Position numbers and translations under genes: made by a program. 64,000 nt of DNA. It comes from a phage. Positions 17,284 through 34,146 of this stretch are shown in pieces. Every line of letters begins with the position of its first letter. Positions within the stretch are counted from its first letter, which is position 1. The notes under the pieces are model-generated. The model did no database searches. It worked only from the letters and a program-made list of their open reading frames with translations, and was not told the DNA's origin. The stretch lies in assembly GCA_011911785.1 (NCBI GenBank), contig GCA_011911785.1_4084.1; one strand, given 5' to 3'.

Positions 17284-17295
17284 AATAGTTTTACC

Positions 17296-19231: not shown

Positions 19232-19243
19232 GTTTATTTGTAA

Positions 19244-21742: not shown

Positions 21743-21832
21743 TATATAATCTCCTATAAATGAATTTGTATTATGGGGAACTTATAATTAAGCTCCCCGT
21801 CGAACGAGTTTATATTATACACCTCCGATATT

Positions 21833-24800
21833 TTAAAAATCTGCTGTTATGGTTATTGTCTTGGTAATCCCAGCCTCTTTAACTTCATACGTAAGCGTAA
21901 TTGGATTCTCTGGCTTCTTGATTAGATAAAAATGAACTATCGTTTTCATTGGAGGCCAGTTCACTGAAAGATACGTCTCGTCATAAGTTAATGTACCAGT
22001 ATATAACGCATCGTCAGGATGGTTTGTAAGGAATGCAACATACATTTTACCTAATGCTGTGATGTTTACATGATCAGACTTTGTGGTCTTTTCAATAAAA
22101 TCAACTGATACCAAAGGTGACGCAGTTGATACAATATGAACAGAATTAGTTGAATATGCATCATGACCTGTACCTTGGGTGTACTTAAATTTTACATCAA
22201 TCCCTTCTGGTGGAGTTTCTAATATTGTCATTAAGTTATGAGAATCACTAAAAACCTTATAATCATATGGAGGAAGTGCAACAACTGATTCATGTAATCT
22301 ACCATCACCTATTGCATCAGGTGGATTTACGGTCATAACTACATAGTTTCCATATGAGTTTGCTTTTGTTGTAAACGAATCTGGTGTTATGGTGAATGAT
22401 TCAACATATGGTCTTAGTGGAGTTATCTGTGCTGTTGCAGGAGCGTAACCAGGAATTGTATAAACTAAATCAAACGGAGCACCAAGCACTTCAGCAGTTT
22501 TATCCACTGGTATTTCATCCTCGTCAAAATAATCTATACCGTAAACTGGTTGTTGATAATAACTATCACCAACAGATGGATCGTAAGCTGTAACTTTAAA
22601 ATATGCTTCAGTCAATGTACTCTTAGCTGGGATATATTCGCAGTAGTTTAATGCCTCACCACTAAATGTACCAGCAAGTGGTATAACATTAGATGGTTTG
22701 AAAACAATATTAACTTTAAATTCCATACCTTTGTGGTAATCATTTTTACCAGGCAAACCAAGACTTATTGATTGTATAATATCATGAACAACCGTACATT
22801 TGTTTGTTGCAGTTTTACCCGAACTTGTATAAATCAATGAAATTGGATTTGGATCTGATTTCAATGCTTTAAAATGTGCACGGTCAGGGGTACTGTCTGA
22901 AAGTAATTCAAAATACCCAACTGCAACTGACCCATCAGATAAACTATAAGACCAAGAACCTTTATGATCTGCTGTATCAGGTGTATATGTGATATCAATA
23001 TAGAAATCATCACCAGCATCCAACTCTTCTGTAGCTGGAGATAATGAAATAGATTCCAATACACTATAATCAACATAACATATAGTTTTATTCGAAACAA
23101 TGTTACCACAAATAAACTGCAATTCTAACTCATCAACCGTTTTAATAGCTTTAAAGTGTGCACGGTCTGGTGTACTATCACTCTCAAGTGTTAAGTACTG
23201 GTCAAATCCAGATGTATTCCACGTACCAGTATGTTCAGCACTATCTGGTGTATATGTAATATCAATATAGAAATCATCACCAGTCTTCACTTCTATAGTA
23301 CTTGGCGAAATAGTAATTGCAGACAATGCACTATGTTGTATTGTACAAGTAGATGAACTAGATTTACCAGAACTGGTATATGTCAGTGTTATTGGTGAAC
23401 TGCTATATTTTTTAACTTGGAAGTGTGCTTTATCTGGAGTACTATCACTTTCAAGAGATAAGTATTCTTCAAAATCACTGGTATTCCATGTACCAATATG
23501 CTGTGCAGTATCAGGTGTATATGTGATATCAATATAGAAATCATCGCCAATAGCTGGAGTTACCGATTCAGGGGACAATTTAACATCAGTTAATTGTGAA
23601 TAAGGTATAACTGTTACATCAGCACTTTTCTTTGCACTAGTAAATGTTAACTTTTTAGAATCAGGTAGCTGTTTGATTACATCAAAATAAGCTTCACTTT
23701 CAGTACTTCTAGAGGTTAGATATGAGAAATAATCAGTTTCATAACTCCATTTACCAGATTTCAAAGCGGTATCCGGCACATAAGTTATAGTAACATCAAA
23801 CGTATCACCATCATTAACATTAATACTAGGTGGATTTACTGATACAGATTCTAACTTGTCATAAAGAATAGAGCATGTATTTTCTGTGGTTACACCAGCA
23901 CTAGAGAATGATATTTGTTGTGTACTTTCGGTTGATGGTGGCTTTGCAATAACTTCAAATACCCCAACATCGGCGGTGCTTTTTGATGTATCTAACTTAA
24001 GATATGTTTCATCATACGCCCAATCACCTTTATGTTCAGCAGTGCTTGGTTCGTATGTTATAGCAATATCAATAATATCACCAACTGATACGGTTTCATT
24101 ATCAGGTGATAATGTCAATTTAACCAACTTGTCATATTTCGCAGTACATGTATTTTCAGCATATTTTCCATTAGTACTGGTATATTTCAATACAGTTGGT
24201 GTATCTGAACGTTTGAGTACTTGGAATTGCTGCTGTTCATAATTAATTGGTTCAATCAATTTAATCATATCAGTATCATATTCCCATGTACCAATATGCT
24301 GAGCACTATCTGGTGTATAGGATATGTCTATTGTGAATGTATCACCATTCAAAACAGTTTCAGAATCAGGAGTTAAATCCACTGATGTTAATAAATCATA
24401 ACGTGCATCACATGTATTAGTTTTAGTGATTCCTGCACTAGTAAAAGATATTACCAATGGTGTATCAGATTTTTTCAGCACTTTAAATTGTGGTTTATCG
24501 TAATCATCTGGGTTCAATAACTCCAAATGGTCTTTATCATAATCCCATGTACCAATGTGTTGTGCTGTATCAGGTGTATATGTAATATCAATTACAAATG
24601 TTTCACCCAATGGGACAATTTCACTAGCTGGTGTTATTGAGAAATCGGTTAATTTATCATACTTAGCATCGCAAATACTATTACCCTTAACACTACCTTG
24701 TTCAAATGTTATTGTTAATGGAGTATCAGACTTTTTGATTACTGTAAAATTACCTTTCTCGTACTCAACACTTTGAGCCGCATTATATTGTAAGTACTCT

Positions 24801-27478
24801 TTGTCATAAACCCATTCACCAATGTGTTGAGCCGTATCAGGTTCATATTTCACTTCAATATCAAAAGATTCACCCAACGGAACAGTTTCATTTGCAGGTG
24901 ATAAAGTAATCCCAGTAAGTGCATCATAACTTGCAACACATGTGTTTGTTGCGGAGTGTCCAGTTGACTTATATGTTAATGTTAATGGAGTATCTGATTT
25001 CTTAATAACCTTAAATATCCCTTTTTCATATTCTCCATTATTAAGATGTTCCAAATATTCATGGTCGAATAACCAAACACCAAAATGATATGCAGTATCA
25101 GGTTCATATTTTATATCAATAGTGAATGTTGAACCTAATGGGGCAATTTCGGATGTAGGAGAAAGTGAAATCCCAGTTAATACATCATGTGATGAATCAA
25201 CGTTAACATATGCTGGATATGCATTACCATTTTGGTAGCTCATACTAACATTTGGTGATTTCTCAATAATTTTAAAGTGAGCACGTTCAGGTGTACTGTC
25301 ATCTAAATGAGTCAAATAATATTGATTGTAATACCACGCACCAGCATGTTCTGCATTATCAGGTTCATATGTTAAATCAATATAGAAATCAGTTCCGACT
25401 GGTGCAATAATTTTAGAAGGATTTGCTGTTATTATAGTTGGTGTTACAAAAGGAACACTACCATAAATGGTATTACTTGTAATGGAACCAGACTTATAGG
25501 TAAATGCAAGTTTATCTTGTGTATCTTTAATAGCTAAGAATCTTGCATAATTTGGTGCTTCTGGGTCCATTCCTTGATACTCAAAATGTTCTTTGTCATA
25601 TTCCCATGTACCAGTGTGTTCTGCTTCATCAGGTGTATAAGTTAGTTCAATATATGCAAGTTCACCAACAGTTAATATTTGGAATCGTATAGGGTCATAA
25701 GCAGCAATTGTAAGTGATTCCAAATCTTTATAATCAACTTTACACTCATTAGTTGCAGTAACTTTACCTTCTGAGTACACTAAATCAATTTTATCAATAT
25801 GTTTTAATGCTTTAAAGTGTGCTTTATCAGCAGTTGACTTAGTACTATCAAATGTGATATATTCTTTAAACGTATCAGTATTCCATGCACCTTCGTGTTT
25901 AGCGGTGTCTGGTACATAAGATATCTCAATATCAAATTCATCACCAATCTTCACAGTTTCTGATGTAGGATTCAGTACTAGTGAAGTTAAATCAGAATAT
26001 AGGACATTGAAGCTAACTGTTTTAGCATCACCACCACCATCTGGGGTAAATGTTGCAGTTGTGGTTCCTTGCTTCTTGGCTACGTAGTACATTACATCAT
26101 CGGTACTTTTAGTTGTATCTTCTTCAACGATCCCAACTGGTTCAAATGTCCAAGTACCACCTTTTTGTGCATTGTTTGGTGTATAAGTAATGTCAATTTT
26201 ACCAGTACTTTCTGGTTTGATATTGGATACAGTACTAGGTGTTAACACTACACTTTTCAAATCAGCATACTCAACCGTGAAGTTGACTTCTGGTAAATCT
26301 TTAGTATAATCTGCACTTGGTGTAAATGTAGCTTTTGTACTACCATGTTCAAGTAGCTGGTAATCAAATTTAGTATCTGTATGCGAAATACTTTTTACTA
26401 TATTAGTATCATCAATTGACCATGTTCCACCTTGTTTGGCGTTATCAGGGGTATAGATTATTTCAATCGTGCCAGATGAACCCGCTTTGTCATCTACAGA
26501 GGCAGGTTTGAGTTCTACATTGTCCAACGCAGCATAAGTTATGTCAATTGTTGCAGCCGCAGTTTTAGTTTTATCTTCATTTAATGTGAAGAGTACACTG
26601 GTGGTTGGGTGAACATTTTCTTTGACAGCTATTGCTTTAAACGTTATACTATTTTCGTCTTCACTTACAACTTCAAGAACATTTGTGTTGTATCCACTCC
26701 ATACACCACCACGTTTAGCTGGGGCATAATCGACTGGATCATAAACAACAGATACAGTAAATGTATCATTAAGTTTTACATCAATTGGGTTTGGGTTGAG
26801 AGAAACACTAAAGAGGACGTTAGGATCATCATGTAAATGACCGAACGCGGTTGATTTTAAATGAGGTTTGTTTGTGGGAGTGAATGATATTTCTACTGGA
26901 ATATCACCATCAATGACTCCTGCTTGGAGGATAATACTATTTTTATCACTATGTACTTCAGTTAAATGTTCAGTTGGGTATGTCCATGTACCAGATTGGT
27001 CAGGCCAATCTTTCGGAGAGAAGTAAGCAGTGAATTGCATTTTATCATTTGAATAAAGAACAAAATCATCTGGCTTTATTATAACTTTAGACAACGAATT
27101 TGGCTCCACGTTCGTTCTTCTGAAAATTATTTCACCATTATGTAATTTTATTTTATTACTTTGATATTGAATACCAAAACCATACTTATTATTAATAGCA
27201 TCAGCTTCTTTTATGCAAAATGTATTATTTGCTAAAGATTTAGCAATTTCAGCATCGTCATCATCATACAACAATGTTGATTTATCTTTATTTCTACCTG
27301 TGATTTTTATATCTTTGTAAATCTTGAAATTTTCAGATATTAAATCATATGAATCGAATGTTCTTTGTTTTATAACATACAATTCTTTAACAAATACTTG
27401 CCCTTCTATCTTTGCAGCAGTAACCTGCAATCCACCTATAACAAATGGAAATTGATCTAAGCCAGCTATTGGTTTCAT
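21833..27478 (-). CDS. giant Ig-like repeat protein with shared N-terminal module
   Basis: 1881 aa; N-terminus paralogous to 13049..15475 and 12617..13030, then about 18 repeats of the ~90-aa unit. Confidence 0.55.
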   Translation of the reverse strand: MKPIAGLDQFPFVIGGLQVTAAKIEGQVFVKELYVIKQRTFDSYDLISENFKIYKDIKITGRNKDKSTLLYDDDDAEIAKSLANNTFCIKEADAINNKYGFGIQYQSNKIKLHNGEIIFRRTNVEPNSLSKVIIKPDDFVLYSNDKMQFTAYFSPKDWPDQSGTWTYPTEHLTEVHSDKNSIILQAGVIDGDIPVEISFTPTNKPHLKSTAFGHLHDDPNVLFSVSLNPNPIDVKLNDTFTVSVVYDPVDYAPAKRGGVWSGYNTNVLEVVSEDENSITFKAIAVKENVHPTTSVLFTLNEDKTKTAAATIDITYAALDNVELKPASVDDKAGSSGTIEIIYTPDNAKQGGTWSIDDTNIVKSISHTDTKFDYQLLEHGSTKATFTPSADYTKDLPEVNFTVEYADLKSVVLTPSTVSNIKPESTGKIDITYTPNNAQKGGTWTFEPVGIVEEDTTKSTDDVMYYVAKKQGTTTATFTPDGGGDAKTVSFNVLYSDLTSLVLNPTSETVKIGDEFDIEISYVPDTAKHEGAWNTDTFKEYITFDSTKSTADKAHFKALKHIDKIDLVYSEGKVTATNECKVDYKDLESLTIAAYDPIRFQILTVGELAYIELTYTPDEAEHTGTWEYDKEHFEYQGMDPEAPNYARFLAIKDTQDKLAFTYKSGSITSNTIYGSVPFVTPTIITANPSKIIAPVGTDFYIDLTYEPDNAEHAGAWYYNQYYLTHLDDSTPERAHFKIIEKSPNVSMSYQNGNAYPAYVNVDSSHDVLTGISLSPTSEIAPLGSTFTIDIKYEPDTAYHFGVWLFDHEYLEHLNNGEYEKGIFKVIKKSDTPLTLTYKSTGHSATNTCVASYDALTGITLSPANETVPLGESFDIEVKYEPDTAQHIGEWVYDKEYLQYNAAQSVEYEKGNFTVIKKSDTPLTITFEQGSVKGNSICDAKYDKLTDFSITPASEIVPLGETFVIDITYTPDTAQHIGTWDYDKDHLELLNPDDYDKPQFKVLKKSDTPLVISFTSAGITKTNTCDARYDLLTSVDLTPDSETVLNGDTFTIDISYTPDSAQHIGTWEYDTDMIKLIEPINYEQQQFQVLKRSDTPTVLKYTSTNGKYAENTCTAKYDKLVKLTLSPDNETVSVGDIIDIAITYEPSTAEHKGDWAYDETYLKLDTSKSTADVGVFEVIAKPPSTESTQQISFSSAGVTTENTCSILYDKLESVSVNPPSINVNDGDTFDVTITYVPDTALKSGKWSYETDYFSYLTSRSTESEAYFDVIKQLPDSKKLTFTSAKKSADVTVIPYSQLTDVKLSPESVTPAIGDDFYIDITYTPDTAQHIGTWNTSDFEEYLSLESDSTPDKAHFQVKKYSSSPITLTYTSSGKSSSSTCTIQHSALSAITISPSTIEVKTGDDFYIDITYTPDSAEHTGTWNTSGFDQYLTLESDSTPDRAHFKAIKTVDELELQFICGNIVSNKTICYVDYSVLESISLSPATEELDAGDDFYIDITYTPDTADHKGSWSYSLSDGSVAVGYFELLSDSTPDRAHFKALKSDPNPISLIYTSSGKTATNKCTVVHDIIQSISLGLPGKNDYHKGMEFKVNIVFKPSNVIPLAGTFSGEALNYCEYIPAKSTLTEAYFKVTAYDPSVGDSYYQQPVYGIDYFDEDEIPVDKTAEVLGAPFDLVYTIPGYAPATAQITPLRPYVESFTITPDSFTTKANSYGNYVVMTVNPPDAIGDGRLHESVVALPPYDYKVFSDSHNLMTILETPPEGIDVKFKYTQGTGHDAYSTNSVHIVSTASPLVSVDFIEKTTKSDHVNITALGKMYVAFLTNHPDDALYTGTLTYDETYLSVNWPPMKTIVHFYLIKKPENPITLTYEVKEAGITKTITITADF

Positions 27479-27611
27479 AACATCTCCTTACCTTAAAAAT
27501 GGGATTGTAAACTGCCTCCCAATATGATACCATAGTTCAAATGGTCAATTGGTAAATCAATGAACTTAACAAAAACACTTGATACTACAGTCATAATTGT
27601 TCAGTTTTGCA

Positions 27612-27640
27612 CTTGACATAATTGATCAATTATTGTACTA
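27612..27640 (+). promoter_or_regulatory. sigma70-like promoter (TTGACA-17 nt-TACTAT)
   Basis: Perfect -35 TTGACA at 27612..27617, 17-nt spacer, -10-like TACTAT; in the divergent intergenic region upstream of 27677. Confidence 0.45.
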
Positions 27641-27676
27641 TTATTTATGTTCCTTAACTCAAATCCGAGGTAATCA

Positions 27677-28282
27677 ATGAAACGAATCTTGAAAGAGATT
27701 GTACAAACCGTTGTTTTAATCGCTGCATTAAACTTTCCGGCAGCGGCAGAAGTTTCAAAAAAATCATCTGTTTTTCTATTAAATGAACATGTTGTGTCAA
27801 TTGATGGTGAACTAAATGATGAAACTGTACAAGAAGTGAAGAAGTTGTGGAAAGAAACAAGATTTAAAATTTTAACAATTACATCACCTGGTGGAGATTT
27901 TGATGCAGGATTAGATTTGGGATTGTTTGTGGCTGCTAAAAAGTTAACTGTTTATGTCCCAAAGCAATGTAATTCGTCTTGTAGTCTGGTTTTTTTCTCT
28001 GCATCATCTGAACGTAGGGATATGAGTGATACCGCAGTGATGGGTTTACATAACATCTCACTAGTATCTACGAATGGTGCAGATCCAGATACGACATTCG
28101 TTTCAGTTAGACAGTTGATGGAGTTTACACATCAAGTCTCAACTAAAGTTGGGTATCTTTTTACACTGTACGCACATAACGGTATCCCCGCTGAAACACT
28201 CATTGATATCAGTACTAAACATGGTGAGGATATCGTTGTCTTACGAAGATCAGATCTCGTTAAATGGGGAATCATTCAATAA
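27677..28282 (+). CDS. secreted ClpP-like protein
   Basis: N-terminal signal-peptide-like segment (VVLIAALNFPAAAEV); ILTITSPGGDFDAG resembles the ClpP SPGG motif. Confidence 0.4.
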   Translation: MKRILKEIVQTVVLIAALNFPAAAEVSKKSSVFLLNEHVVSIDGELNDETVQEVKKLWKETRFKILTITSPGGDFDAGLDLGLFVAAKKLTVYVPKQCNSSCSLVFFSASSERRDMSDTAVMGLHNISLVSTNGADPDTTFVSVRQLMEFTHQVSTKVGYLFTLYAHNGIPAETLIDISTKHGEDIVVLRRSDLVKWGIIQ

Positions 28283-28409
28283 AAAGTTGTATTTTTTATG
28301 AAGCAATGATATAATCCTAATACTAATTCATGATTTTGGTTAAGGGTGGTGTACTGCCACCCGATTTTAAGATATAATGGTTGTACATTATCAACCAAGG
28401 AAACAAAAA

Positions 28410-28673
28410 ATGACAGAATTATCACATCTTCAAGGCTGGACAGAGTTCATCTTCTATGCTACTATAGTTACATATGGAATCATTGTTCTTTTATCAGTGA
28501 TTATGGCAAGTGATTTCAAGAGTGGTTTTCTTGAAGAAAATGGTGAGTTTTCTTCTAAAACTGAAAAGTACTTTTATTATTTCTTTAAAATTTCGTATAC
28601 AATTTTACTCATAATTTTGGGTTTACTATTGTATTTCATGTACACAATCTTAGATGTAATGCATCTTTTATAA
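28410..28673 (+). CDS. small membrane protein
   Basis: Two hydrophobic helices; start set to ATG 28410 with 'aagga' RBS. Confidence 0.35.
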   Translation: MTELSHLQGWTEFIFYATIVTYGIIVLLSVIMASDFKSGFLEENGEFSSKTEKYFYYFFKISYTILLIILGLLLYFMYTILDVMHLL

Positions 28674-28684
28674 CGGAGATATCA

Positions 28685-29287
28685 ATGACTTGTATTATTG
28701 CTTACACTGATGGTAACACATCTTTTATCGCGGGTGACAAACTGGGTAGTAATGGTTTCACTAAAGCAATTCAAACTGAACCAAAAGTGTTTGAAAAAGA
28801 ATTCATCAAAATCGATGAAAGTGGATTGAATCGCACCAAAGAAGTTATGGCAATGGGATACACGTCGAGCTTCCGCATGGGACAATTGCTGACGTATAAA
28901 CTTGATTTACCTGAACAGCAATCAAACCAAACATTCTCACAGTACTTAGTACTTGAGGTAATCCCACGTATTCGCACACTCTTCAAAGAAGAATGGGGTG
29001 CTCGTGATACAACTCAAGACGTTGGTGGTGGACAGTTTATTATTCTCCACAATCATACAATTTATGAAGTTCAAGAGGATTTTTCAGTACTCCAACCTAA
29101 GACACAAATTACATCTGTTGGTAGTGGTACATATCATGCAATTGCAGCTATGCAAGCATATATTGAAGTTCAAAAAGAAACAGGTGTTAAGATGGTTGAT
29201 CGCACCGATTCTATCTTCAAAATTGTAAGTGATAATGTTACCAGCGTTAGTGCTGAGTATGATTTACTAAGCTATCCTAAGCTGTAA
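28685..29287 (+). CDS. HslV/proteasome-beta-like Ntn hydrolase
   Basis: N-terminus MTCIIAYTDGNTSFIAGDKLG resembles HslV (TTIVSV..NG.VVIAGDGQ) with Thr at position 2; C-terminal SVGSGTYHAIAA resembles the HslV GSGG..A motif. Confidence 0.45.
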   Translation: MTCIIAYTDGNTSFIAGDKLGSNGFTKAIQTEPKVFEKEFIKIDESGLNRTKEVMAMGYTSSFRMGQLLTYKLDLPEQQSNQTFSQYLVLEVIPRIRTLFKEEWGARDTTQDVGGGQFIILHNHTIYEVQEDFSVLQPKTQITSVGSGTYHAIAAMQAYIEVQKETGVKMVDRTDSIFKIVSDNVTSVSAEYDLLSYPKL

Positions 29288-29296
29288 TACAAAAAA

Positions 29297-29321
29297 GGGG
29301 ATTCTTATAATCCCCTATATT
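29297..29321 (+). terminator. rho-independent terminator
   Basis: Hairpin ggggatt-cttat-aatcccc followed by a T-rich tract. Confidence 0.5.
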
Positions 29322-29347
29322 AATTTAATAAGGAGAGTATTATAACT

Positions 29348-29560
29348 ATGATAACTATCAATTACTTTTCACTATGCTTTGTTTATTTTGTTGTTGTATT
29401 TCTAGCAGTTGTAGCGTACAATAATATTAAATGTATATATAAAATTATCAAAAACAAAGAGAAATTCAATGGATGGATGATATATCACATTGTCATCTCG
29501 GTTGTGTGTATCTTATTTGTATACGATTTGAGTTCATTAGGTACAGTAGGTAAGCTATGA
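29348..29560 (+). CDS. small membrane protein
   Basis: 70-aa ORF with two hydrophobic helices. Confidence 0.35.
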   Translation: MITINYFSLCFVYFVVVFLAVVAYNNIKCIYKIIKNKEKFNGWMIYHIVISVVCILFVYDLSSLGTVGKL

Positions 29561-30309
29561 TTTCTGACTCTTTTATAAAAAATAAAGGTAATAAACGTGT
29601 ATTGGTTATTTCCGGTGCAGGTCTATCCGTTGAAAGTGGGATGGAACCGTTTCGCATGGACGATGGCCTATGGGATCAATTTCAAATAAATGATGTATGT
29701 AACATTGCACGTCTTAGTACTAAGTATCATTTAGTACACACTTTCTATAATACATTACGTGTTAAAATGAAAGATTGTGTTCCTAATGATATGCATTATT
29801 ATATCAAATCTCTAGAAGATACATACGGTGATAACTTTTTACATATGACTTCGAATATGGATGATCTCTATACTCGTATTGGTGGCAATGAATTAAAGTT
29901 ACATGGTAATTTAAAAGAAGTTATTGAGAATTTTACAATTGGTGGTGACGATTATAGTATTGTGGATTGTGGTTATGAACCGTACATTCCGAAAGAAGGT
30001 GTCTTTGCGAAACCAAACGTAGTGTTCATTGGTGAATATTATCGTTATGTTGATGGTGAAAAACTCCCAATATACGATGAGCGTAATTTAGTATTGCAAT
30101 CCTTAACAGAAGATGATACAGTTGTAGTCATTGGTAGCAGTGACACAGTACTGAAATGGTCACATCTGGTTGCGTGTTTACCATGCTTTAGTGTTAATAT
30201 CAACATCAGAAAAAATGATAACGATTTCATGTTCAATGAAAAAATTATAAAACCAGCTACAAAAGCGATTCCAGTACTGGAAACTATCATTAAGGATAGA
30301 ATGAAATGA
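29557..30309 (+). CDS. SIR2-family (sirtuin-like) NAD-binding protein, no zinc ribbon
   Basis: GAGLSVESGMEPFR..GLW (sirtuin GAGIS.ESGIP.FR..GLW), TSNMDDLYTRIG (sirtuin TQNID.LH.RAG), catalytic-His context LHGNL; no CxxC pairs. Confidence 0.7.
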   Translation: MISDSFIKNKGNKRVLVISGAGLSVESGMEPFRMDDGLWDQFQINDVCNIARLSTKYHLVHTFYNTLRVKMKDCVPNDMHYYIKSLEDTYGDNFLHMTSNMDDLYTRIGGNELKLHGNLKEVIENFTIGGDDYSIVDCGYEPYIPKEGVFAKPNVVFIGEYYRYVDGEKLPIYDERNLVLQSLTEDDTVVVIGSSDTVLKWSHLVACLPCFSVNINIRKNDNDFMFNEKIIKPATKAIPVLETIIKDRMK

Positions 30310-30854
30310 TTCGAGAAGTACCTCTAGGTGAGTATGGTAAACGAGCAAACTTTGTATTCTGTTACTTCTTTGCTCGAAATTGTAACCCATATAAAGGTTA
30401 TGATTTAAATGATATCCCTGTTGTGAATCTGGTATTACTCCAGCTTCGTTGGGATGGTTTACTGGGTGGTTGTGGTGGAACAGTTGAAGATACCGATGCC
30501 ACCTTAGAAGATGCACTATTCCGTGAAATTCAGGAAGAGATGGATTATAATATTTTCATCGAACAACTGAAACCATTGAAAACTTACGAACTATATCCAG
30601 GAGCACATACTCATAGCTATAGTTATGAAGTTACTTACGAAGAATTGAAAGCGATTCGCGATGGATACAGTACTGCTAAACATGCAAGTGCAGAAGTGGC
30701 TGGTGTTAATTTATGTCACATTTCTCGTTATTCAAAGGGACAAAACCGAGAAGCAGGATATAATAATCTTATGACACAAAACTTCATAGGAACTGCTAAA
30801 ATGGAATTAGAACATCTTGTTCAATCCGAGAATTTACTGATTAGTTACTTATAA
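30306..30854 (+). CDS. hypothetical protein, possible degenerate Nudix hydrolase
   Basis: GGTVEDTDATLEDALFREIQEEMDY contains REIQEE resembling the Nudix box core, but spacing is non-canonical. Confidence 0.35.
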   Translation: MIREVPLGEYGKRANFVFCYFFARNCNPYKGYDLNDIPVVNLVLLQLRWDGLLGGCGGTVEDTDATLEDALFREIQEEMDYNIFIEQLKPLKTYELYPGAHTHSYSYEVTYEELKAIRDGYSTAKHASAEVAGVNLCHISRYSKGQNREAGYNNLMTQNFIGTAKMELEHLVQSENLLISYL

Positions 30855-30865
30855 GGTGAATTATA

Positions 30866-31198
30866 ATGTCTTACTCAATGTTTCTGGATGATATTCGTGA
30901 TCCTGAAAAGTATTATCCAAATCAAAACATGGTTTTATGTCGTGATTATGAAAGTGCATGTGCTTATGTAAATGAACATGGTTTACCACAATTTATTAGC
31001 TTCGATCATGACTTAGGTGATGTTGGGGAGGATGAAAAAACAGGGTATTCATTTGCAAAATTTCTAATTGATTATATGGTCGAAAACAATATCAGTACTG
31101 GATTCGATTATATTATTCATAGCAGTAATCCTGTAGGGAAGGTCAACATTGACACATACTTACAGAATGGTTTTAGATTTTTGAGAGGGGACAATTGA
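30866..31198 (+). CDS. hypothetical protein
   Basis: 110-aa ORF. Confidence 0.4.
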   Translation: MSYSMFLDDIRDPEKYYPNQNMVLCRDYESACAYVNEHGLPQFISFDHDLGDVGEDEKTGYSFAKFLIDYMVENNISTGFDYIIHSSNPVGKVNIDTYLQNGFRFLRGDN

Positions 31199-31494
31199 CA
31201 AAACATCATATACAAAGCTTTATAATCACAAGTGTTATATTTCTTGTTGTGTTTTGGTTCTTCTATCATCAAGATCAAACCAAGCACCGAAATATATACT
31301 ACCGTACTGCTGTTGTTACTGACATAGGGCAGTGTGAAGAAAATACATGTTCATTTACTTATAAGACTGAAGATGGGTCTATTAAGTATGGAGCATCAAG
31401 GAAACCAGTTTCAGTTGGGCAAATTGTTTACAATGAATGCTGGACAGAAAAGGCTCGCGGTCACCGCTGCTACGTTGACTATGAGCCACAATAA
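31195..31494 (+). CDS. hypothetical membrane protein
   Basis: 99-aa ORF with apparent TTG start and N-terminal hydrophobic helix; start uncertain. Confidence 0.35.
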   Translation: MTKHHIQSFIITSVIFLVVFWFFYHQDQTKHRNIYYRTAVVTDIGQCEENTCSFTYKTEDGSIKYGASRKPVSVGQIVYNECWTEKARGHRCYVDYEPQ

Positions 31495-31558
31495 GAAGTG
31501 TCTGAGTCTATAATCTACCGTAGAGCACAAGGATGTGCTCATAACTCAAGGATGTTTT

Positions 31559-32998
31559 ATGAAAAAATACACAATTGACACAAACGTACTACTATCCGAT
31601 CCAAATGCAACCGTAGCATTTGATGGGGCAGCAGTGATTCTACCATTCACTGTTCTTGAAGAACTTGATTCAATCAAGAGCCGTAATGTTGACGTATCAC
31701 GTGATGCACGTTTCGCAATCCGTAACATCGATGCAATTCTGAAAGATGCTACTCATGAAGAAATCAGCAGTACTGGTGTTAATATTGCCAATATCCACAA
31801 AAATATGGATGCATCCAGTAAGCTATTCGTTATGACGAATGAAGAAGCTGAAGCACTTATTCGTATGGGCGGCAGTGAAGATAAAGTAGAAACTCTACTT
31901 AAAAGTACTGTACCAGATGACAAAATCATTCTAGTGGCTTTGGCATCACAATCAGTACTGGTAACTCGCGACATTAACATGCGTATCAAAGCAATGAGCT
32001 ACGGTGTTGAGGTACAAGATTACCGTCATGACGTTGCAATCGAAGATAGTGAGTTGATTCATATTGGTCAGCACCACCTTGATATTGATTTCTGGAAAAC
32101 ATTCAGTGAAGTTAATAATGCTGAAATTAAATCCCAACAAGAAGGTCGCCGTCTATATCACTATATTCCAACCGCATTGATTCAAGATGTTCTACCAGAT
32201 AATCTATGTATTGGTGATTATCTATATGATAATGCTGATGTACTATTCGTATACGAAGGTCAATCTGCTATCGAAGAAGAAGACGGTTCACTAACACCTG
32301 AAGATATTTTGGTATTCCAGGATATTGGTCAAAGTATCGCTCTTCGTGCTAAAGTTTGGGATATTAAAGCAAAGAATATTCAACAGGCACTAGCAATTAA
32401 CAGTATTCTTGACCCTGATGTACATTTGACAGTACTACTCGGTTCAGCAGGTACTGGTAAAACATTGATTACTGTTGCTACTTCACTCGAATTAGTACTA
32501 GAGAAGCGTAAATACGATCGTATAATCTTCTCCAAAACACAAGATTCTCAATTTGAAGAAATTGGTTTCTTGCCTGGTTCTGAAGCTGAGAAGGTCATCC
32601 CATTCTGTGGGGCTGCAATTGATGCACTAGAGTATCTACACAAAGACGATGCTAACCCACAAGGTAGTATTGAAGAGATTCTCAAACGTAACGTAATGCA
32701 GTTTAAAGCATTGAACTTTATTCGTGGTCGTTCTTTTACTAATACAATTCTAATTGTTGATGAATTCCAGAACATCACCCCTGCACAGGCAAAAACTATT
32801 CTTACCCGTGCAGGTCAAAACTGTAAGGTTATCATTATGGGTAACTTAGCACAGATTGATAGTAAGTTTATTAGTCCAGTTAATAGTGGTTTGACATATG
32901 TAACTGAAAAATTCAAAGATTGGGAAGGGTGTCGTATCATTGAATTGGAAGGTGTTGTACGTTCTGCACTTGCAGAGTTTGCAGAAGAAAATATGTAA
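31559..32998 (+). CDS. phoH: PhoH-like ATPase with N-terminal PIN-like domain
   Basis: Walker A GSAGTGKT, Walker B-like VDEFQN; start set to ATG 31559 with 'aagga' RBS. Confidence 0.85.
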   Translation: MKKYTIDTNVLLSDPNATVAFDGAAVILPFTVLEELDSIKSRNVDVSRDARFAIRNIDAILKDATHEEISSTGVNIANIHKNMDASSKLFVMTNEEAEALIRMGGSEDKVETLLKSTVPDDKIILVALASQSVLVTRDINMRIKAMSYGVEVQDYRHDVAIEDSELIHIGQHHLDIDFWKTFSEVNNAEIKSQQEGRRLYHYIPTALIQDVLPDNLCIGDYLYDNADVLFVYEGQSAIEEEDGSLTPEDILVFQDIGQSIALRAKVWDIKAKNIQQALAINSILDPDVHLTVLLGSAGTGKTLITVATSLELVLEKRKYDRIIFSKTQDSQFEEIGFLPGSEAEKVIPFCGAAIDALEYLHKDDANPQGSIEEILKRNVMQFKALNFIRGRSFTNTILIVDEFQNITPAQAKTILTRAGQNCKVIIMGNLAQIDSKFISPVNSGLTYVTEKFKDWEGCRIIELEGVVRSALAEFAEENM

Positions 32999-33005
32999 TC
33001 TATTA

Positions 33006-33034
33006 TTGACATTAAATGTGTTCATTGCTATAAT
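33006..33034 (+). promoter_or_regulatory. consensus sigma70 promoter (TTGACA-17 nt-TATAAT)
   Basis: Perfect -35 at 33006..33011 and perfect -10 at 33029..33034; RBS aaggaag and ATG 33067 downstream. Confidence 0.6.
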
Positions 33035-33066
33035 GAACACACCATTATCGAAGAAGGAAGTAAATC

Positions 33067-33255
33067 ATGGCTAAACAACCTAAGAAAAAAGAACCAGAAG
33101 TTAAAGTTAAAAAAGTGAAAGTTATTCAATCCAAAGAACAACGCACTTATGAGCTACGTAAAGCTGAAACTTTAAGTGGGCTTCAGTCTCTACGTAAGCA
33201 AGGTGTACTAACACGTGCACAATATCGTGAACTGGTTGCACAAAAAGGTTTTTGA
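33067..33255 (+). CDS. small basic protein
   Basis: 62-aa K/R-rich ORF with strong RBS directly downstream of the consensus promoter. Confidence 0.45.
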   Translation: MAKQPKKKEPEVKVKKVKVIQSKEQRTYELRKAETLSGLQSLRKQGVLTRAQYRELVAQKGF

Positions 33256-33271
33256 TTTAACGCGTTTTTTT

Positions 33272-33334
33272 GGAGTTCTTAATAAATACTTTCATAAGAA
33301 TAATAATACTTTTTATGAATTTAAAAAGAACTCC
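33272..33334 (+). repeat. long inverted repeat (nested stem-loop)
   Basis: 9-nt arms ggagttctt / aagaactcc around a 45-nt AT-rich loop that contains a second inverted repeat (ttcataa / ttatgaa). Confidence 0.5.
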
Positions 33335-33358
33335 ATGTGTTATTTCAGTAAGTTTTTC

Positions 33359-33387
33359 ATCCCTGTCAATTGGCAGGGATTTTTTAT
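33359..33387 (+). terminator. rho-independent terminator
   Basis: Hairpin atccctg-tcaattgg-cagggat followed by tttttt. Confidence 0.6.
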
Positions 33388-33399
33388 TGGTGGTAAACT

Positions 33400-34146
33400 A
33401 TGGATCTTGAAAAACAAACCGAAGCAATCATCACCGAACTAATCAAAATTGGTTATAAATGTCCATTCATCTATGGTTCATGGAATACTTTTTGTTTGTA
33501 TAAGTATGATGACAAATTGCCAAATGATATTGATGTTATTAATATAGTACCAGAAGAGTATGAAGAAGGTGAATTCTCTGTAAAATTAGATTGTATTGAT
33601 ATACCTGTCAATATAGAATGTATGACTCTAAATCATCTTCGTGTAGAATTAATGCGTGGGGATGTTAAATACTATACCATTGGTTTTGGTACTATTGTAC
33701 CGAAATGTGCAAATCATCTTTTGATGTACCTTGGTCATATCGGTTCGGTTATGATGACCCGCCGTAACAGTGAGATTCGTAAAATTTGCAGTACTGCATC
33801 AGATAAAGCCTTTAATAAAGGAAAAAAGAAGTTGACAGTACTGGAAGATTACGATAAGATGTTAGGACTAAAGAACATCTGGCATAGCATTCACTTCATC
33901 TATATCATTACGCATTATTACAATCTGTACAGATCTAACACTGAACATGAAATGAATATTGCGTCGATGAAACAAGAGTTTGATGTGCTTGAAATGCTGA
34001 ACATTCGCGACAACATCTATAAGATATATGATGAAACATATGGTGATTATCATGTAAAAGCACAAGCTGTTATTGATTACGCGAAACCGATTCGTAACAA
34101 ACTGATGACTGAATTTAGAAAATTATACCCCAAGGAGGATGTATGA
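33400..34146 (+). CDS. hypothetical protein
   Basis: 248-aa ORF; a weak GS...DxD-like segment (YGSW..NDIDV) is too loose to call. Confidence 0.4.
   Translation: MDLEKQTEAIITELIKIGYKCPFIYGSWNTFCLYKYDDKLPNDIDVINIVPEEYEEGEFSVKLDCIDIPVNIECMTLNHLRVELMRGDVKYYTIGFGTIVPKCANHLLMYLGHIGSVMMTRRNSEIRKICSTASDKAFNKGKKKLTVLEDYDKMLGLKNIWHSIHFIYIITHYYNLYRSNTEHEMNIASMKQEFDVLEMLNIRDNIYKIYDETYGDYHVKAQAVIDYAKPIRNKLMTEFRKLYPKEDV

What the first reader, a model, noticed from the sequence alone, without database searches (positions are those of the whole stretch)
27612..30854. Accessory module: secreted ClpP-like protein, HslV-like Ntn hydrolase, SIR2-family protein and possible Nudix hydrolase
Downstream of a sigma70-like promoter (27612) lie a signal-peptide-bearing ClpP-like protein, a small membrane protein and an HslV/proteasome-beta-like protein, ended by a terminator (29297). 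Next come a small membrane protein, a protein with clear sirtuin motifs (GAGLSVESG..FR..GLW; TSNMDDLYTRIG; LHGNL) lacking the zinc ribbon, and an ORF with a degenerate Nudix-like REIQEE box. SIR2 and Nudix enzymes both act on NAD+ or ADP-ribose, so the pair could manipulate host NAD+ metabolism or ADP-ribosylation, conceivably countering NAD-depleting defences. The combination with two protease-fold proteins is not a module I recognise.
Basis: partly seen in the sequence, partly recalled or inferred. Interest (0 to 1): 0.75.

Follow-up and report, generated by a model that had tools for sequence, protein, structure and literature searches.

The report
Phage sirtuin–Nudix block beside unrelated proteases
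The genes are real and mostly correctly named, but they are two or three separate units of a known giant E. coli phage: two add-on protease-like genes, and an already described, still untested sirtuin–Nudix–cREC cluster that probably uses NAD+ to process damaged RNA ends.

Summary
The window comes from an Asteriusvirus jumbo coliphage. It is 98.9% identical to phage A4 over the locus, and the same genes are already annotated in A4 and 121Q.

All the ORFs exist at the stated coordinates.
- SIR2 is supported: Pfam 2e-19, closest to E. coli CobB, catalytic N/D/H intact, Zn-ribbon cysteines absent.
- The "possible Nudix" is a clear NUDT16-like Nudix with intact catalytic glutamates.
- The HslV-like protein is confirmed: Thr2/Asp18/Lys34/GSG invariant, AF2 pLDDT 91, and top PDB matches are HslV and BPH.
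- The ClpP-like protein is supported only indirectly.

The six genes are not one module. Across 15 complete Rak2-like jumbo-phage loci, the collinear block is Sir2–Nudix–cREC–small exported protein–PIN/PhoH2. It runs to 32998, beyond the finding's end. The ClpP-like gene is confined to Asteriusvirus, and the HslV-like gene to two clades.

This sirtuin–Nudix–cREC–PIN neighbourhood was described by Iyer et al. 2022 (prototype Serratia phage BF). They predicted NAD+-dependent RNA-end repair, with the sirtuin acting like Tpt1/KptA and cREC plus Nudix degrading ADP-ribose cyclic phosphate. I adopt that reading at moderate confidence. A CobB-like protein deacylase with O-acyl-ADP-ribose clean-up is the main rival. 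No experimental test was found. Interest is modest.

The parts
27613..27641 (+). Sigma-70-like promoter match (TTGACA-17-TACTAT) in the divergent intergenic region ahead of the + strand gene run
   Evidence: (10 of 12 matches). A similarly placed match lies upstream of the 121Q orthologue. It is a pattern match only; site counts in the region are near the shuffle expectation.
27677..28282 (+). ORF A, 201 aa: exported ClpP/NfeD-superfamily-like protein. Invariant SPGGDFD, C98-N-S100-x-C102, H125 and D138. Restricted to Asteriusvirus and fast-evolving.
   Evidence: phrog_26024 2.4e-60. Pfam CLP_protease E 0.023 and NfeD1b_N E 0.025, both below cut-off. NCBIfam ClpP 0.003. Only 6 close homologues. 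Profile search: 1758 representatives, and 11 of 50 distant hits match CLP_protease at up to 2.4e-7. Hydrophobic N-terminus. AF2 model unusable, pLDDT 45.
28377..28673 (+). ORF B, 98 aa (87 aa from the A4 start): two-TM membrane protein, found only together with ORF A
28685..29287 (+). ORF C, 200 aa: orphan HslV/proteasome-beta-family Ntn threonine peptidase homologue
   Evidence: phrog_1040 3.6e-21. Invariant M1-T2-C3, D18, K34, G146 and G148 in 29 homologues. hhalign against E. coli HslV: probability 96.5%, E 7.8e-10. AF2 pLDDT 91.4. Foldseek top hits are HslV at 3.5e-10 and BPH with TM 0.68-0.75.
29296..29316 (.). 8-bp GC-containing hairpin between the protease genes and the Sir2 block. A possible, weak terminator that reads on both strands.
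   Evidence: dG -11.2, z -1.6. No terminator-like site at that position in 121Q.
29348..29560 (+). ORF D, 70 aa: two-TM protein whose stop overlaps the Sir2 start. Found only in A4-type phages.
29557..30309 (+). ORF E, 250 aa: CobB-like (class III/U-type) sirtuin of the phage clade. Catalytic residues are intact and the Zn ribbon is lost.
   Evidence: Pfam SIR2 1.9e-19. phrog_2162 2.5e-72. PDB best hit is E. coli CobB 6rxj, 1.7e-21. NCBIfam CobB models 2e-26 but below equivalog cut-offs. Invariant GAG, E26-S27-G28, F32-R33, N100, H116 and E160 including CobB, and D103 within the phage clade; CobB's ribbon cysteines have no counterpart. Homologues in 975 phage records. No PADLOC defence-SIR2 hit.
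30306..30854 (+). ORF F, 182 aa: NUDT16-like Nudix hydrolase, start overlapping the Sir2 stop
   Evidence: Pfam Nudt16-like 3.9e-19 and NUDIX 3.7e-6. phrog_9999 3.9e-85. PDB human NUDT16 about 3e-13. R73-E74-x2-E77-E78, E68, H103, E130 and FIG160-162 invariant with NUDT16. Fused to cREC in GAP32.
30866..31198 (+). ORF G, 110 aa: cREC (cyclic-phosphate-processing receiver-like) domain protein. Lies outside the finding's coordinates but is the Nudix partner.
   Evidence: Pfam PF20274 4.7e-22. Invariant D8-D9, R11-D12, D47-x-D49, H85 and N88-P89. Nudix-cREC fusion in GAP32; the 302-aa BF orthologue is also a fusion by annotated length and per PMC9503650.
31195..31494 (+). ORF H, 99 aa: small exported or membrane-anchored protein with four invariant cysteines. 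Always sits between cREC and PIN-PhoH in Rak2-like phages.
   Evidence: phrog_14661 1.1e-34.. Alignment with a lipobox-like LVSSC in fENko-type homologues.
31535..32998 (+). ORF I: PIN + PhoH (PhoH2-type) RNA helicase/RNase homologue. The likely true start is ATG 31559, giving 479 aa as annotated in A4.
   Evidence: Pfam PhoH 1e-43 and PIN_4 1.2e-21. NCBIfam 'RNA 5'-3' helicase PhoH2' 1.7e-47, below the equivalog cut-off. 69-86% identical across Rak2-like phages. A 53-kDa PhoH-like protein was detected in phAPEC6 virions (PMC7247149).
33006..33034 (+). Perfect sigma-70 consensus (TTGACA-17-TATAAT with TG), 8 nt after the PIN-PhoH stop. Marks the start of the next unit and so the 3' end of the block.

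Best explanation
The interval is not one module. It is three layers of a Rak2-like (Asteriusvirus) jumbo-phage genome.

(1) A lineage-specific pair. An exported ClpP/NfeD-like putative serine peptidase sits with a two-TM protein.

(2) An orphan HslV-type threonine peptidase.

(3) A conserved block, Sir2 - NUDT16-like Nudix - cREC - small exported Cys-rich protein - PIN/PhoH2. This is the type-1 phage sirtuin neighbourhood of Iyer et al. 2022.

Shown here: the folds, the intact catalytic residues, the gene order and its conservation, and the Nudix-cREC fusion in relatives.

Inferred mechanism. The Zn-ribbon-less CobB-derived sirtuin uses NAD+ as an ADP-ribose donor. The most likely acceptor is a 2'-phosphate (or other phosphate end) left on tRNA or mRNA after cleavage by metal-independent host nucleases, as with Tpt1/KptA. 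[quoted passage not shown] The Nudix enzyme splits the pyrophosphate to give AMP plus a ribose bisphosphate. That clears a toxic or inhibitory by-product and recycles adenylate. The phage's own RNA ligase and Pnk, seen in A4 just upstream of the window, would do the sealing. PIN-PhoH2 handles RNA substrates independently, possibly from the moment of injection. The protease-like genes act elsewhere, in the periplasm and in cytoplasmic proteolysis, and are neighbours only by position.
For: Architecture.
- E-F-G-H-I are contiguous and collinear in all 15 complete Rak2-like loci, down to 38% Sir2 identity. A and B occur only in Asteriusvirus, C in two clades, D only in A4.
- Start and stop codons overlap for D/E, E/F and G/H.
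- Nudix and cREC are one polypeptide in GAP32; the 302-aa BF orthologue is also a fusion by annotated length and per PMC9503650.
- Serratia phage BF, the published prototype, has the orthologous block (PMC9503650 section 3.7.3).

Link to RNA repair.
- In rV5 the same sirtuin clade sits in Rnl1 - cREC - Sir2, next to a kinase, a metallophosphoesterase and a tRNA cluster. Ten of 80 Sir2 loci show this arrangement.
- A4 encodes RNA ligase and Pnk about 20 kb upstream of Sir2.

Enzymes look active.
- Sir2 keeps GAGxSxESG, FR, N100, D102/103 and H116.
- Nudix keeps RE-x2-EE and other NUDT16 invariants.
- cREC keeps its Asp pairs.

Nicotinamide recycling.
- NAMPT lies within 10 kb of this Sir2 in 21 of 80 loci, including Rak2-like and rV5-like ones.

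Not a defence-type NADase.
- No PADLOC SIR2 hit.
Against: - No experiment on any phage sirtuin, cREC or this Nudix was found. The RNA-repair reading is purely contextual.
- No sirtuin is known to use a phosphate nucleophile.
- The closest relatives by sequence are bona fide protein deacylases (CobB, SIRT5), and the FGE loop and catalytic His used for deacylation are retained.
- The protein is acidic (28 K+R against 36 D+E), which is unlike RNA-binding Tpt1.
- T4-type Pnk removes 2',3'-cyclic phosphate completely, so a 2'-phosphotransferase is not obviously needed.
- This window lacks the 2H/Acb1-like enzyme, RNA ligase, Pnk, NAMPT and any tRNA gene.
- T5-like phages, the largest Sir2-bearing group, show no Nudix, cREC or ligase within 10 kb at tblastn sensitivity.
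- PIN nucleases do not make cyclic-phosphate ends, and PIN-PhoH occurs in 283 phage records, among them T4-like genomes such as KP15.
Confidence: 0.4

Rival explanations
1. The sirtuin is what its closest relatives are: a CobB-like NAD+-dependent protein lysine deacylase. It would reset host or phage protein acylation during infection. Nudix (with cREC) would simply destroy the O-acyl-ADP-ribose/ADP-ribose product, and NAMPT would recycle the nicotinamide that inhibits sirtuins.
For: - Best matches are E. coli CobB (1.7e-21, high similarity over residues 13-123) and SIRT5. NCBIfam CobB/deacylase models score 2e-26.
- Catalytic His116, N100, D102 and the FGE loop are conserved.
- NUDT16-family and other Nudix enzymes hydrolyse ADP-ribose derivatives. 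Hydrolysis of O-acetyl-ADP-ribose by Ysa1/NUDT5 is my recollection, not tested here.
- NAMPT is nearby in 21 of 80 loci.
Against: - The whole Zn-ribbon module, which forms half of the acyl-peptide cleft in canonical sirtuins, is missing across the phage clade.
- The window protein falls far below all CobB equivalog cut-offs (92 bits against 318).
- This reading does not explain the tight fusion or linkage with cREC, a domain reported only in RNA-repair and cyclic-ADPr contexts (PMC9503650).
- It does not explain the Rnl1-cREC-Sir2 arrangement in rV5.
Confidence: 0.3
2. One reading: Sir2 plus Nudix (plus cREC) are counter-defence enzymes. They would manipulate host NAD+ or destroy NAD-derived immune signals (cADPR isomers of Thoeris and the like), or reverse ADP-ribosylation.
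For: - In GAP32, BF and fENko-Kae01 the block lies directly downstream of NAMPT, NMNAT and a 2H protein that Pfam assigns to Acb1, the anti-CBASS family (E about 1e-16). That looks like an NAD/anti-signalling island.
- Iyer et al. propose that phage Nudix and cREC counter soluble ADPr derivatives.
Against: - A sirtuin consumes NAD+, which works against rescue from NAD depletion.
- It matches no defence-type SIR2 model.
- NAMPT, NMNAT and Acb1 are absent from this window and from the 121Q locus, so the trio does not depend on them.
- No known anti-Thoeris or anti-DSR protein has these folds, as far as the papers searched show.
Confidence: 0.12
3. RNA decapping and decay. The NUDT16-like enzyme would remove 5' caps (NAD, ADPr or triphosphate) from host RNA, creating 5'-monophosphate entry sites for the PIN-PhoH2 5'-3' helicase/RNase. 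Sir2 and cREC would be accessory.
For: - NUDT16 is a decapping enzyme family (Pfam PF22327 'U8 snoRNA-decapping enzyme-like'; PDB hits).
- ORF I matches the 'RNA 5'-3' helicase PhoH2' model.
- Nudix and PIN-PhoH are always syntenic in Rak2-like phages.
- PhoH-like protein is virion-associated in phAPEC6, which fits an early attack on host RNA.
Against: - It leaves the most tightly linked partners (Sir2 overlapping Nudix, the Nudix-cREC fusion) unexplained.
- Full-length PIN-PhoH occurs in 283 phage records, among them T4-like genomes such as KP15, and T5-like Sir2 loci have PhoH but no Nudix nearby.
- An exported protein gene separates cREC from PIN-PhoH.
Confidence: 0.1
4. One reading: all six genes (ClpP-like, TM, HslV-like, TM, Sir2, Nudix) form one co-functioning accessory module coupling proteolysis to NAD+ chemistry.
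For: - The genes are adjacent on the same strand, downstream of one promoter-like site.
- The HslV-like gene lies near the Sir2 block in two clades, and near PhoH in two unrelated phage contigs.
Against: - The genes are not co-conserved. A and B are absent outside Asteriusvirus, C is absent from GAP32-type loci within 10 kb, and D occurs only in A4.
- A diverges to 43% identity where its flanks stay at 78-86%.
- A is predicted to be exported, while Sir2 and Nudix are cytoplasmic.
- A hairpin separates the two groups.
Confidence: 0.03

Closest known systems
Type-1 phage sirtuin 'RNA-repair' neighbourhood of Iyer, Burroughs, Anantharaman & Aravind 2022 (Viruses 14:1977, PMC9503650; prototype Serratia phage BF, AQW88637.1)
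   Same: [quoted passage not shown] The block is orthologous and collinear with BF, GAP32 and fENko-Kae01.
   Different: - Nudix and cREC are separate genes here but fused in BF and GAP32.
- The 2H (Acb1-like) gene and the NAMPT/NMNAT genes found upstream in those phages are absent from this window.
- The paper does not mention the conserved exported Cys-rich protein between cREC and PIN-PhoH.
- The system is a computational prediction and has not been tested.
E. coli CobB / human SIRT5 (class III sirtuin protein deacylases)
   Same: NAD-binding Rossmann core, GAGxSxESGIxxFR, the N/D pair, catalytic His and the FGE loop. Residues 13-123 align to CobB with high similarity.
   Different: - All four Zn-ribbon cysteines are missing, replaced by a short conserved segment (Y-x-V-I-D-x-GY).
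- Scores are far below CobB equivalog thresholds.
- The genomic context is ADPr/RNA-end enzymes rather than acetyl-CoA synthetase-type substrates.
Tpt1/KptA RNA 2'-phosphotransferase with 2H/cyclic phosphodiesterase clean-up (the functional analogue proposed)
   Same: [quoted passage not shown]
   Different: The fold is unrelated (sirtuin Rossmann versus ART). No sequence or structural similarity was tested or expected. The analogy is inference only.
Human NUDT16 / Xenopus X29 (U8 snoRNA decapping, ADP-ribose and protein-ADPr hydrolase)
   Same: Passes Pfam Nudt16-like (69.6 bits against a cut-off of 27). About 30% identity. The Nudix helix RE-x2-EE and other family invariants are conserved.
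   Different: It is a phage protein operonic with, or fused to, cREC and a sirtuin. The final Gly of the Nudix box is Asp. The substrate is unknown.
HslV (ClpQ) and the beta-proteobacterial proteasome homologue BPH
   Same: Ntn fold with N-terminal Thr directly after Met, Asp17/Lys33/GSG equivalents, Foldseek E 3.5e-10 and TM up to 0.75.
   Different: - Only 13-18% identity to solved HslVs.
- It carries a family-specific TSSFRMGQ motif and a roughly 20-aa insertion.
- No HslU-like ATPase gene is adjacent.
- It belongs to a phage-borne family of 65 clusters.
ClpP / NfeD (S14/S49-type ClpP-crotonase serine peptidases) and mycobacterial PhoH2
   Same: - ORF A shares the xSPGG oxyanion motif and the Ser and His positions with ClpP/NfeD, through intermediate sequences.
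- ORF I shares the PIN+PhoH architecture with PhoH2.
   Different: - ORF A is exported, has a CxSxC signature, fails the Pfam thresholds directly and has no reliable model.
- ORF I scores 162 bits against a PhoH2 equivalog cut-off of 680, and its upstream gene is an exported protein rather than an antitoxin-like ORF.

Membership tests
Sirtuin (SIR2, PF02146), CobB-like | Profile match above the curated threshold | tested here: met
   70.8 bits against a cut-off of 24, E 1.9e-19; phrog_2162 2.5e-72
Sirtuin (SIR2, PF02146), CobB-like | NAD-binding GAGxSxxSGIxxFR motif, the N/D pair and the catalytic His | tested here: met
   G20-A21-G22, E26-S27-G28, F32-R33, N100, D102/103 and H116 are conserved; all except the Asp are invariant in the alignment that includes CobB, and D103 is invariant among the phage sequences
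Sirtuin (SIR2, PF02146), CobB-like | Four-cysteine Zn-ribbon small domain | tested here: not met
   CobB's cysteines have no counterpart in any of six phage sequences
Sirtuin (SIR2, PF02146), CobB-like | CobB equivalog score (NCBIfam) | tested here: not met
   Best score is 92.5 bits against a cut-off of 318
Sirtuin (SIR2, PF02146), CobB-like | NAD+-dependent deacylase activity | not testable with these tools
   Needs a biochemical assay
Defence-type SIR2 NADases (ThsA, DSR, SIR2-HerA and others) | Match to PADLOC defence SIR2 models | tested here: not met
   No family at E <= 0.01
NUDT16-like Nudix (PF22327 / PF00293) | Profile match above the curated threshold | tested here: met
   Nudt16-like 69.6 bits against 27; NUDIX 27.4 against 21.1; human NUDT16 structures at about 3e-13
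NUDT16-like Nudix (PF22327 / PF00293) | Nudix box catalytic residues RE-U-x-EE | tested here: met
   R73, E74, E77, E78 and E68 are invariant with NUDT16. Only the terminal Gly of the box is replaced by Asp.
cREC (PF20274) | Profile match and the conserved aspartate pairs of the receiver-like active site | tested here: met
   78.9 bits against 27; D8-D9 and D47-x-D49 invariant, including in rV5
Type-1 phage sirtuin neighbourhood (Iyer et al. 2022) | Sirtuin linked to Nudix, cREC and a PIN endoRNase | tested here: met
   Contiguous at 29557-32998 and orthologous to the BF prototype
Type-1 phage sirtuin neighbourhood (Iyer et al. 2022) | Linked 2H phosphoesterase | tested here: not met
   The Acb1/2H gene lies upstream of Sir2 in GAP32 and fENko and in BF by annotation. 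No homologue is found in the window or in the 121Q locus.
Type-1 phage sirtuin neighbourhood (Iyer et al. 2022) | RNA 2'-phosphate / cyclic-phosphate processing activity | not testable with these tools
   This is a prediction only; no experimental paper was found
HslV / proteasome-beta Ntn peptidases | N-terminal Thr nucleophile plus the Asp17, Lys33 and Gly-Ser-Gly equivalents | tested here: met
   M1-T2, D18, K34 and G146-S-G148 are invariant in 29 sequences and align to E. coli HslV from residue 1
HslV / proteasome-beta Ntn peptidases | Alpha-beta-beta-alpha Ntn fold | tested here: met
   AF2 pLDDT 91.4. Top 28 PDB hits are HslV or BPH, E down to 3.5e-10.
HslV / proteasome-beta Ntn peptidases | Curated profile thresholds (Pfam PF00227, NCBIfam HslV) | tested here: not met
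   No PF00227 hit for the window protein. HslV models score 20 bits against 137. Three distant homologues carry PF00227.
HslV / proteasome-beta Ntn peptidases | Partner HslU-type AAA+ unfoldase | tested here: inconclusive
   None is adjacent in the window or in relatives. The whole genome was not searched, and host HslU could serve.
ClpP / NfeD (ClpP-crotonase serine peptidases) | Profile match above the curated threshold | tested here: not met
   CLP_protease 15 bits against 20.2; NfeD1b_N 14.6 against 40; hhalign probability 3-19%
ClpP / NfeD (ClpP-crotonase serine peptidases) | Homology through intermediates; oxyanion xSPGG motif; Ser/His/Asp candidates | tested here: inconclusive
   11 of 50 distant relatives hit CLP_protease (2.4e-7) and 8 of 50 hit NfeD1b_N. 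S70-PGG, S100, H125 and D138 are invariant. There is no usable structure.
PhoH2 (PIN + PhoH RNA helicase/RNase) | N-terminal PIN plus C-terminal PhoH ATPase | tested here: met
   PIN_4 77.8 bits against 21.9; PhoH 149.7 against 27
PhoH2 (PIN + PhoH RNA helicase/RNase) | Equivalog score to characterised PhoH2 | tested here: not met
   162.4 bits against a cut-off of 680

The most novel reading that the evidence does not exclude
The Zn-ribbon-less, CobB-derived sirtuin would be the first sirtuin whose physiological substrate is nucleic acid. It would ADP-ribosylate RNA phosphate ends (2'-PO4 removal or reversible ADPr capping), with the NUDT16-like/cREC pair as its dedicated by-product or eraser enzymes. 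Homologues occur in about 975 deposited phage genomes, including T5 and rV5. A secondary possibility is that the orphan HslV-like peptidase recruits host HslU to degrade host proteins. Neither is excluded by my evidence, and neither is original to this window, since the first was proposed in 2022.
Probability: 0.3. Interest if true: 0.75.

Novelty: already known. Interest (0 to 1): 0.3.

Why it matters
If the published prediction is right, a large family of phage sirtuins works on RNA rather than protein. That would be a new substrate class for sirtuins and a second, non-homologous solution to the Tpt1 reaction, relevant to how phages survive tRNA-cleaving defences.

For this scan the practical value is corrective.
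- The interesting unit is Sir2-Nudix-cREC, with syntenic PIN-PhoH2, and not the protease-plus-NAD combination.
- It is already annotated and discussed in the literature.
- What is missing is biochemistry, not discovery.

The two protease-like proteins belong to uncharacterised families and are minor leads in their own right.

Tried and rejected
- AF2 model of the ClpP-like ORF A from its 7-sequence alignment gave pLDDT 44.7 and was not used for fold search.
- phmmer of ORFs A and C against PDB sequences found nothing meaningful.
- hhalign of ORF A against E. coli ClpP and against the window's true ClpP was weak, at probability 3-19%.
- Rfam scan of 27000-33500 gave no credible RNA family.
- There is no tRNA in the window.
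- PADLOC gave no defence-system match for Sir2, cREC or the proteases.
- A tblastn search of the window for Acb1/2H, NAMPT, RNA ligase and Pnk homologues found none.
- Three literature searches for experimental work on phage sirtuins, phage NUDT16-like enzymes or phage HslV found none.
- fENko-Kae01 proteomics detected the HslV-like, Acb1-like, TM99 and PIN-PhoH homologues. The sample was only a >300-kDa filtrate, so virion association cannot be concluded.
- I considered and rejected reading ORF H as a PhoH2 antitoxin analogue. It has a signal/anchor or lipobox and four invariant cysteines, which indicates export.
- I considered treating the promoter and hairpin as firm operon boundaries and rejected that, because site counts are near the shuffle expectation and no terminator-like site is found there in 121Q.
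The conclusions drawn from them are backed independently by PDB searches.

Full report
**Origin of the window.** Megablast of 27600-31500 finds Escherichia phage A4 (Asteriusvirus, 355 kb) at 98.9% identity over 100% of the query. 121Q, PBECO4-type and other Rak2-like jumbo phages match at 75-86% over parts of it. The deposited annotations already name these genes.
- A4: 'ClpP/crotonase-like domain protein', 'protease', 'Sir2-like protein', 'PhoH-like protein'.
- 121Q: 'protease (ClpP-like)', 'peptidase HslV family', 'Sir2', 'nudix hydrolase', 'membrane protein', 'PhoH-like'.
- ELP-22: likewise.

**The observation.**
- The promoter-like TTGACA-17-TACTAT sits at 27613-27641 in a divergent intergenic region. 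A 15-kb block of minus-strand Ig-repeat protein genes ends at 27478, and the plus-strand run begins at 27677.
- The hairpin at 29296-29316 has an 8-bp stem, dG -11.2 kcal/mol and z -1.6. Its T-tail is poor on the + strand.
- Both signals are plausible, but site counts in this AT-rich DNA are close to the shuffle expectation. No terminator-like site is found at that position in 121Q.
- A perfect consensus promoter lies at 33006-33034, directly after the PIN-PhoH stop.

**Fold checks.**
- Sir2 (ORF E): Pfam SIR2 1.9e-19 and PHROG 2.5e-72. The best solved relatives are E. coli CobB (1.7e-21) and SIRT5. Among the NCBIfam matches are CobB/deacylase models at 2e-26, far below equivalog cut-offs.
- Sir2 alignment: against five other phage sirtuins and CobB, the GAG, E-S-G, F32-R33, N100, H116 and E160 positions are invariant; D103 is invariant among the phage sequences. 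None of CobB's Zn-ribbon cysteines is present in any phage sequence. The protein matches no PADLOC defence-type SIR2 model.
- Nudix (ORF F): this is not a doubtful Nudix. It passes Pfam Nudt16-like (3.9e-19) and NUDIX (3.7e-6), PHROG 3.9e-85, and hits human NUDT16 structures at about 3e-13. R73-E74-x2-E77-E78 and a dozen other positions are invariant between the phage orthologues and NUDT16.
- HslV-like (ORF C): PHROG 'peptidase HslV family' 3.6e-21. There are 65 homologous clusters, three of them carrying PF00227. M1-T2-C3, D18, K34 and G146-x-G148 are invariant. hhalign to E. coli HslV gives probability 96.5%, E 7.8e-10, aligned from residue 1. The AF2 model has pLDDT 91.4, and its best PDB matches are HslV (3.5e-10) and BPH (TM 0.68-0.75).
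- ClpP-like (ORF A): direct evidence is weak. Pfam CLP_protease scores 0.023 and NfeD1b_N 0.025, NCBIfam ClpP 0.003, and hhalign probability is at most 19%. All of these anchor on the SPGG motif. Only six close homologues exist in 5.8 billion clusters, and the AF2 model failed.
- ClpP-like, indirect evidence: a profile search of 1.84 billion representatives found 1758 relatives. In a sample of 50 distant ones, SxGG is invariant and CxSxC and a His are near-invariant. Eleven hit CLP_protease (best 2.4e-7) and eight hit NfeD1b_N. Named members are 'hypothetical' or 'ClpP class serine protease'. The N-terminus is a signal-peptide-like hydrophobic segment ending AAA|EV. 'Secreted ClpP-like' is therefore reasonable but not proven.

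- The next gene, 30866-31198, is a cREC domain protein (PF20274, 4.7e-22).
- Next comes a 99-aa exported or anchored protein.
- Then a PIN_4 + PhoH protein (1.2e-21 and 1e-43), which NCBIfam relates to 'RNA 5'-3' helicase PhoH2'.

**Co-conservation.** I fetched 80 viral-contig loci encoding this sirtuin clade, plus annotated loci, and ran tblastn with all nine window proteins against them.
- Sir2-Nudix-cREC-TM99-PIN/PhoH is contiguous and collinear in every complete Rak2-like locus. These are 15 loci covering Asteriusvirus, fENko-Kae01-type, GAP32/Mimasvirus-type and metagenomic relatives, down to 38% Sir2 identity.
- ORFs A and B occur only in Asteriusvirus. They are only 43% and 39% identical between A4-type and 121Q-type phages, where their neighbours are 74-86% identical.
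- ORF C is present in Asteriusvirus and fENko-type phages (about 70%) but is absent within 10 kb in GAP32-type phages.
- ORF D occurs only in A4.

**Relatives add information.**
- In GAP32, Nudix and cREC are one 301-aa protein (Nudt16-like 2.4e-16 plus cREC 3.7e-24). The BF orthologue is 302 aa and the paper describes it as a fusion. That is classic evidence of a functional link.
- Immediately upstream of Sir2, GAP32, BF and fENko-Kae01 carry a 148-aa 2H protein. Pfam assigns it to Acb1 (about 1e-16) in GAP32 and fENko; in BF it is annotated 'RNA ligase'. Further upstream are NAMPT and an NMNAT/cytidylyltransferase.
- None of these, nor RNA ligase or Pnk, is in this window. A4 does encode RNA ligase and Pnk about 20 kb upstream of Sir2, just beyond the window start.
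- In rV5 the same sirtuin clade lies in Rnl1 - cREC (9e-14) - Sir2, beside an AAA_33 kinase, a metallophosphoesterase and a tRNA cluster.
- Across the 80 loci, within 10 kb of Sir2: PhoH in 42, NAMPT in 21, cREC in 18, and RNA ligase, Nudix, PIN and Acb1 in 10 each. tblastn sensitivity means divergent homologues may be missed.
- The sirtuin clade is in 975 deposited phage records, including T5.

**Literature.** Iyer, Burroughs, Anantharaman & Aravind (Viruses 2022, PMC9503650, section 3.7.3) describe exactly this. [quoted passage not shown] In rV5-like phages it is linked to T4-like tRNA ligase, cREC and a kinase.
- They propose that the sirtuin acts like KptA/Tpt1 to remove RNA 2'-phosphates, and that the associated enzymes open cyclic phosphates or process ADPr>P.
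- Their 2021 jumbo-phage survey defines cREC and calls the role of PIN-PhoH 'enigmatic'.
- I confirmed that BF's locus is orthologous to the window's.
- I found no experimental study of a phage sirtuin, cREC or this Nudix.

**Mechanism.** I commit to the published reading at moderate confidence (0.4).
- Shown: the folds, the retention of catalytic residues in all three enzymes, tight translational coupling (overlapping D/E, E/F and G/H codons), the Nudix-cREC fusion, the recurrent RNA-ligase or tRNA context in an independent lineage, and the recurrent NAMPT linkage. NAMPT fits any reaction that releases nicotinamide.
- Inferred: that the acceptor is an RNA phosphate, that cREC opens ADPr-1'',2''>P, and that Nudix then yields AMP.
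- Against: the nearest relatives are protein deacylases and the deacylase-relevant residues are retained. The protein is acidic. T4-type Pnk makes a 2'-phosphotransferase unnecessary. This phage lacks the 2H enzyme. T5-like phages show Sir2 without Nudix or cREC nearby.
- The deacylase plus O-acyl-ADPr clean-up rival therefore gets 0.3.
Its support is the NAMPT/NMNAT/Acb1 island in relatives. Its weakness is that a sirtuin consumes NAD+.
- A decapping/RNA-decay reading that links Nudix to PIN-PhoH2 gets 0.1.

**PIN-PhoH and ORF H may be only syntenic.**
- Full-length PIN-PhoH occurs in 283 phage records, among them T4-like genomes such as KP15.
- A 53-kDa PhoH-like protein was found by mass spectrometry in mature phAPEC6 virions, an Asteriusvirus (PMC7247149).
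- ORF H has a signal/anchor, or in fENko-type homologues a lipobox-like LVSSC, plus four invariant cysteines. That points to a periplasmic disulfide-bonded domain.

**The protease-like genes.**
- ORF C is a bona fide HslV-family homologue with a complete catalytic set and no adjacent unfoldase. It could work with host HslU or alone, as BPH does. Its distant homologues sit beside PhoH in two unrelated phage contigs, which may be ancestral synteny.
- ORF A belongs to a large uncharacterised family of exported ClpP/NfeD-like proteins with a CxSxC signature. Its rapid divergence suggests an interface with the host envelope.
- Neither gene is tied to the NAD+ genes by any evidence other than adjacency.

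**Verdict.** The thing is already known at the level of annotation and published prediction, and its biochemistry remains open. Interest is 0.3.

Noticed in passing
window 33006-33034: Perfect sigma-70 consensus promoter (TTGACA-17-TATAAT with an extended -10 TG), 8 nt after the PIN-PhoH stop. It is the only 12/12 match in the region scanned.
   Followed up: no
window 12617-27478 (- strand): A block of large Ig-like-repeat proteins of 808, 567, 629, 832 and 1881 aa (Big_2, HYDIN/ASH-type Ig). It is much larger than the corresponding A4 region, which holds a 723-aa protein plus small ORFs. It is probably a hypervariable fibre or decoration locus and is the main difference between this phage and A4.
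   Followed up: partly
window 31195-31494; L005, L010, L011 homologues: The 99-aa protein conserved between cREC and PIN-PhoH has four invariant cysteines (GQC-x5-C ... ECW-x9-C). In fENko-type phages it has a lipobox-like LVSSC, so it is probably an exported lipoprotein or anchored protein. The published description of the neighbourhood does not mention it.
   Followed up: partly
window 27677-28282: ORF A defines a large uncharacterised family: 1758 representatives at E <= 1e-3, including Ferrimonas and Aliiglaciecola chromosomes. Members share SxGG, CxSxC and His motifs, and most have no Pfam assignment. Within Asteriusvirus it is only 43% identical between types, while flanking genes are 74-86% identical.
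   Followed up: partly
L090 3868-6558; L092 329-2053: Distant homologues of the HslV-like protein lie next to or near a PhoH gene, and near dCMP deaminase, DNA ligase and a YAcAr/SLOG protein, in unrelated phage contigs. This echoes the gene set of this window.
   Followed up: no
L004 4300-4746; L005 4531-4977; L094 2736-3182: The '2H' gene just upstream of Sir2 in GAP32 and fENko-Kae01 scores as Pfam Acb1 (anti-CBASS) at about 1e-16, against only 1e-3 to 1e-5 for 2_5_RNA_ligase2. NAMPT and NMNAT lie a few kb further upstream. In BF the corresponding gene is annotated 'RNA ligase' and was not scanned. This looks like an NAD/anti-signalling island that Asteriusvirus lacks at this position.
   Followed up: partly
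80 Sir2 loci L008-L087: NAMPT lies within 10 kb of the phage sirtuin in 21 of 80 loci, including Rak2-like and rV5-like ones, and PhoH in 42 of 80, including T5-like phages where it is on the opposite strand 3-4 kb away.
   Followed up: partly
window 31559-32998 (orthologue phAPEC6 gp341c): A 53-kDa PhoH-like protein is listed among 62 virion-associated proteins of the Asteriusvirus phAPEC6 (8 peptides, 30.9% coverage; PMC7247149). The PIN-PhoH protein may therefore be packaged and injected. Orthology is inferred from size and annotation only.
   Followed up: partly
window 8957-9652, 5879-7297, 7251-8108: The window also encodes a canonical ClpP homologue (CLP_protease 7.7e-42, annotated as head maturation protease in 121Q), an ATP-dependent DNA ligase and a calcineurin-like phosphoesterase. 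That makes three protease-fold genes within 20 kb.
   Followed up: no
window 31535 vs 31559: The longest ORF for PIN-PhoH starts at GTG 31535. A4 annotates the ATG at 31559 (479 aa), which places the PIN motif IDTNVLL near the N-terminus.
   Followed up: partly
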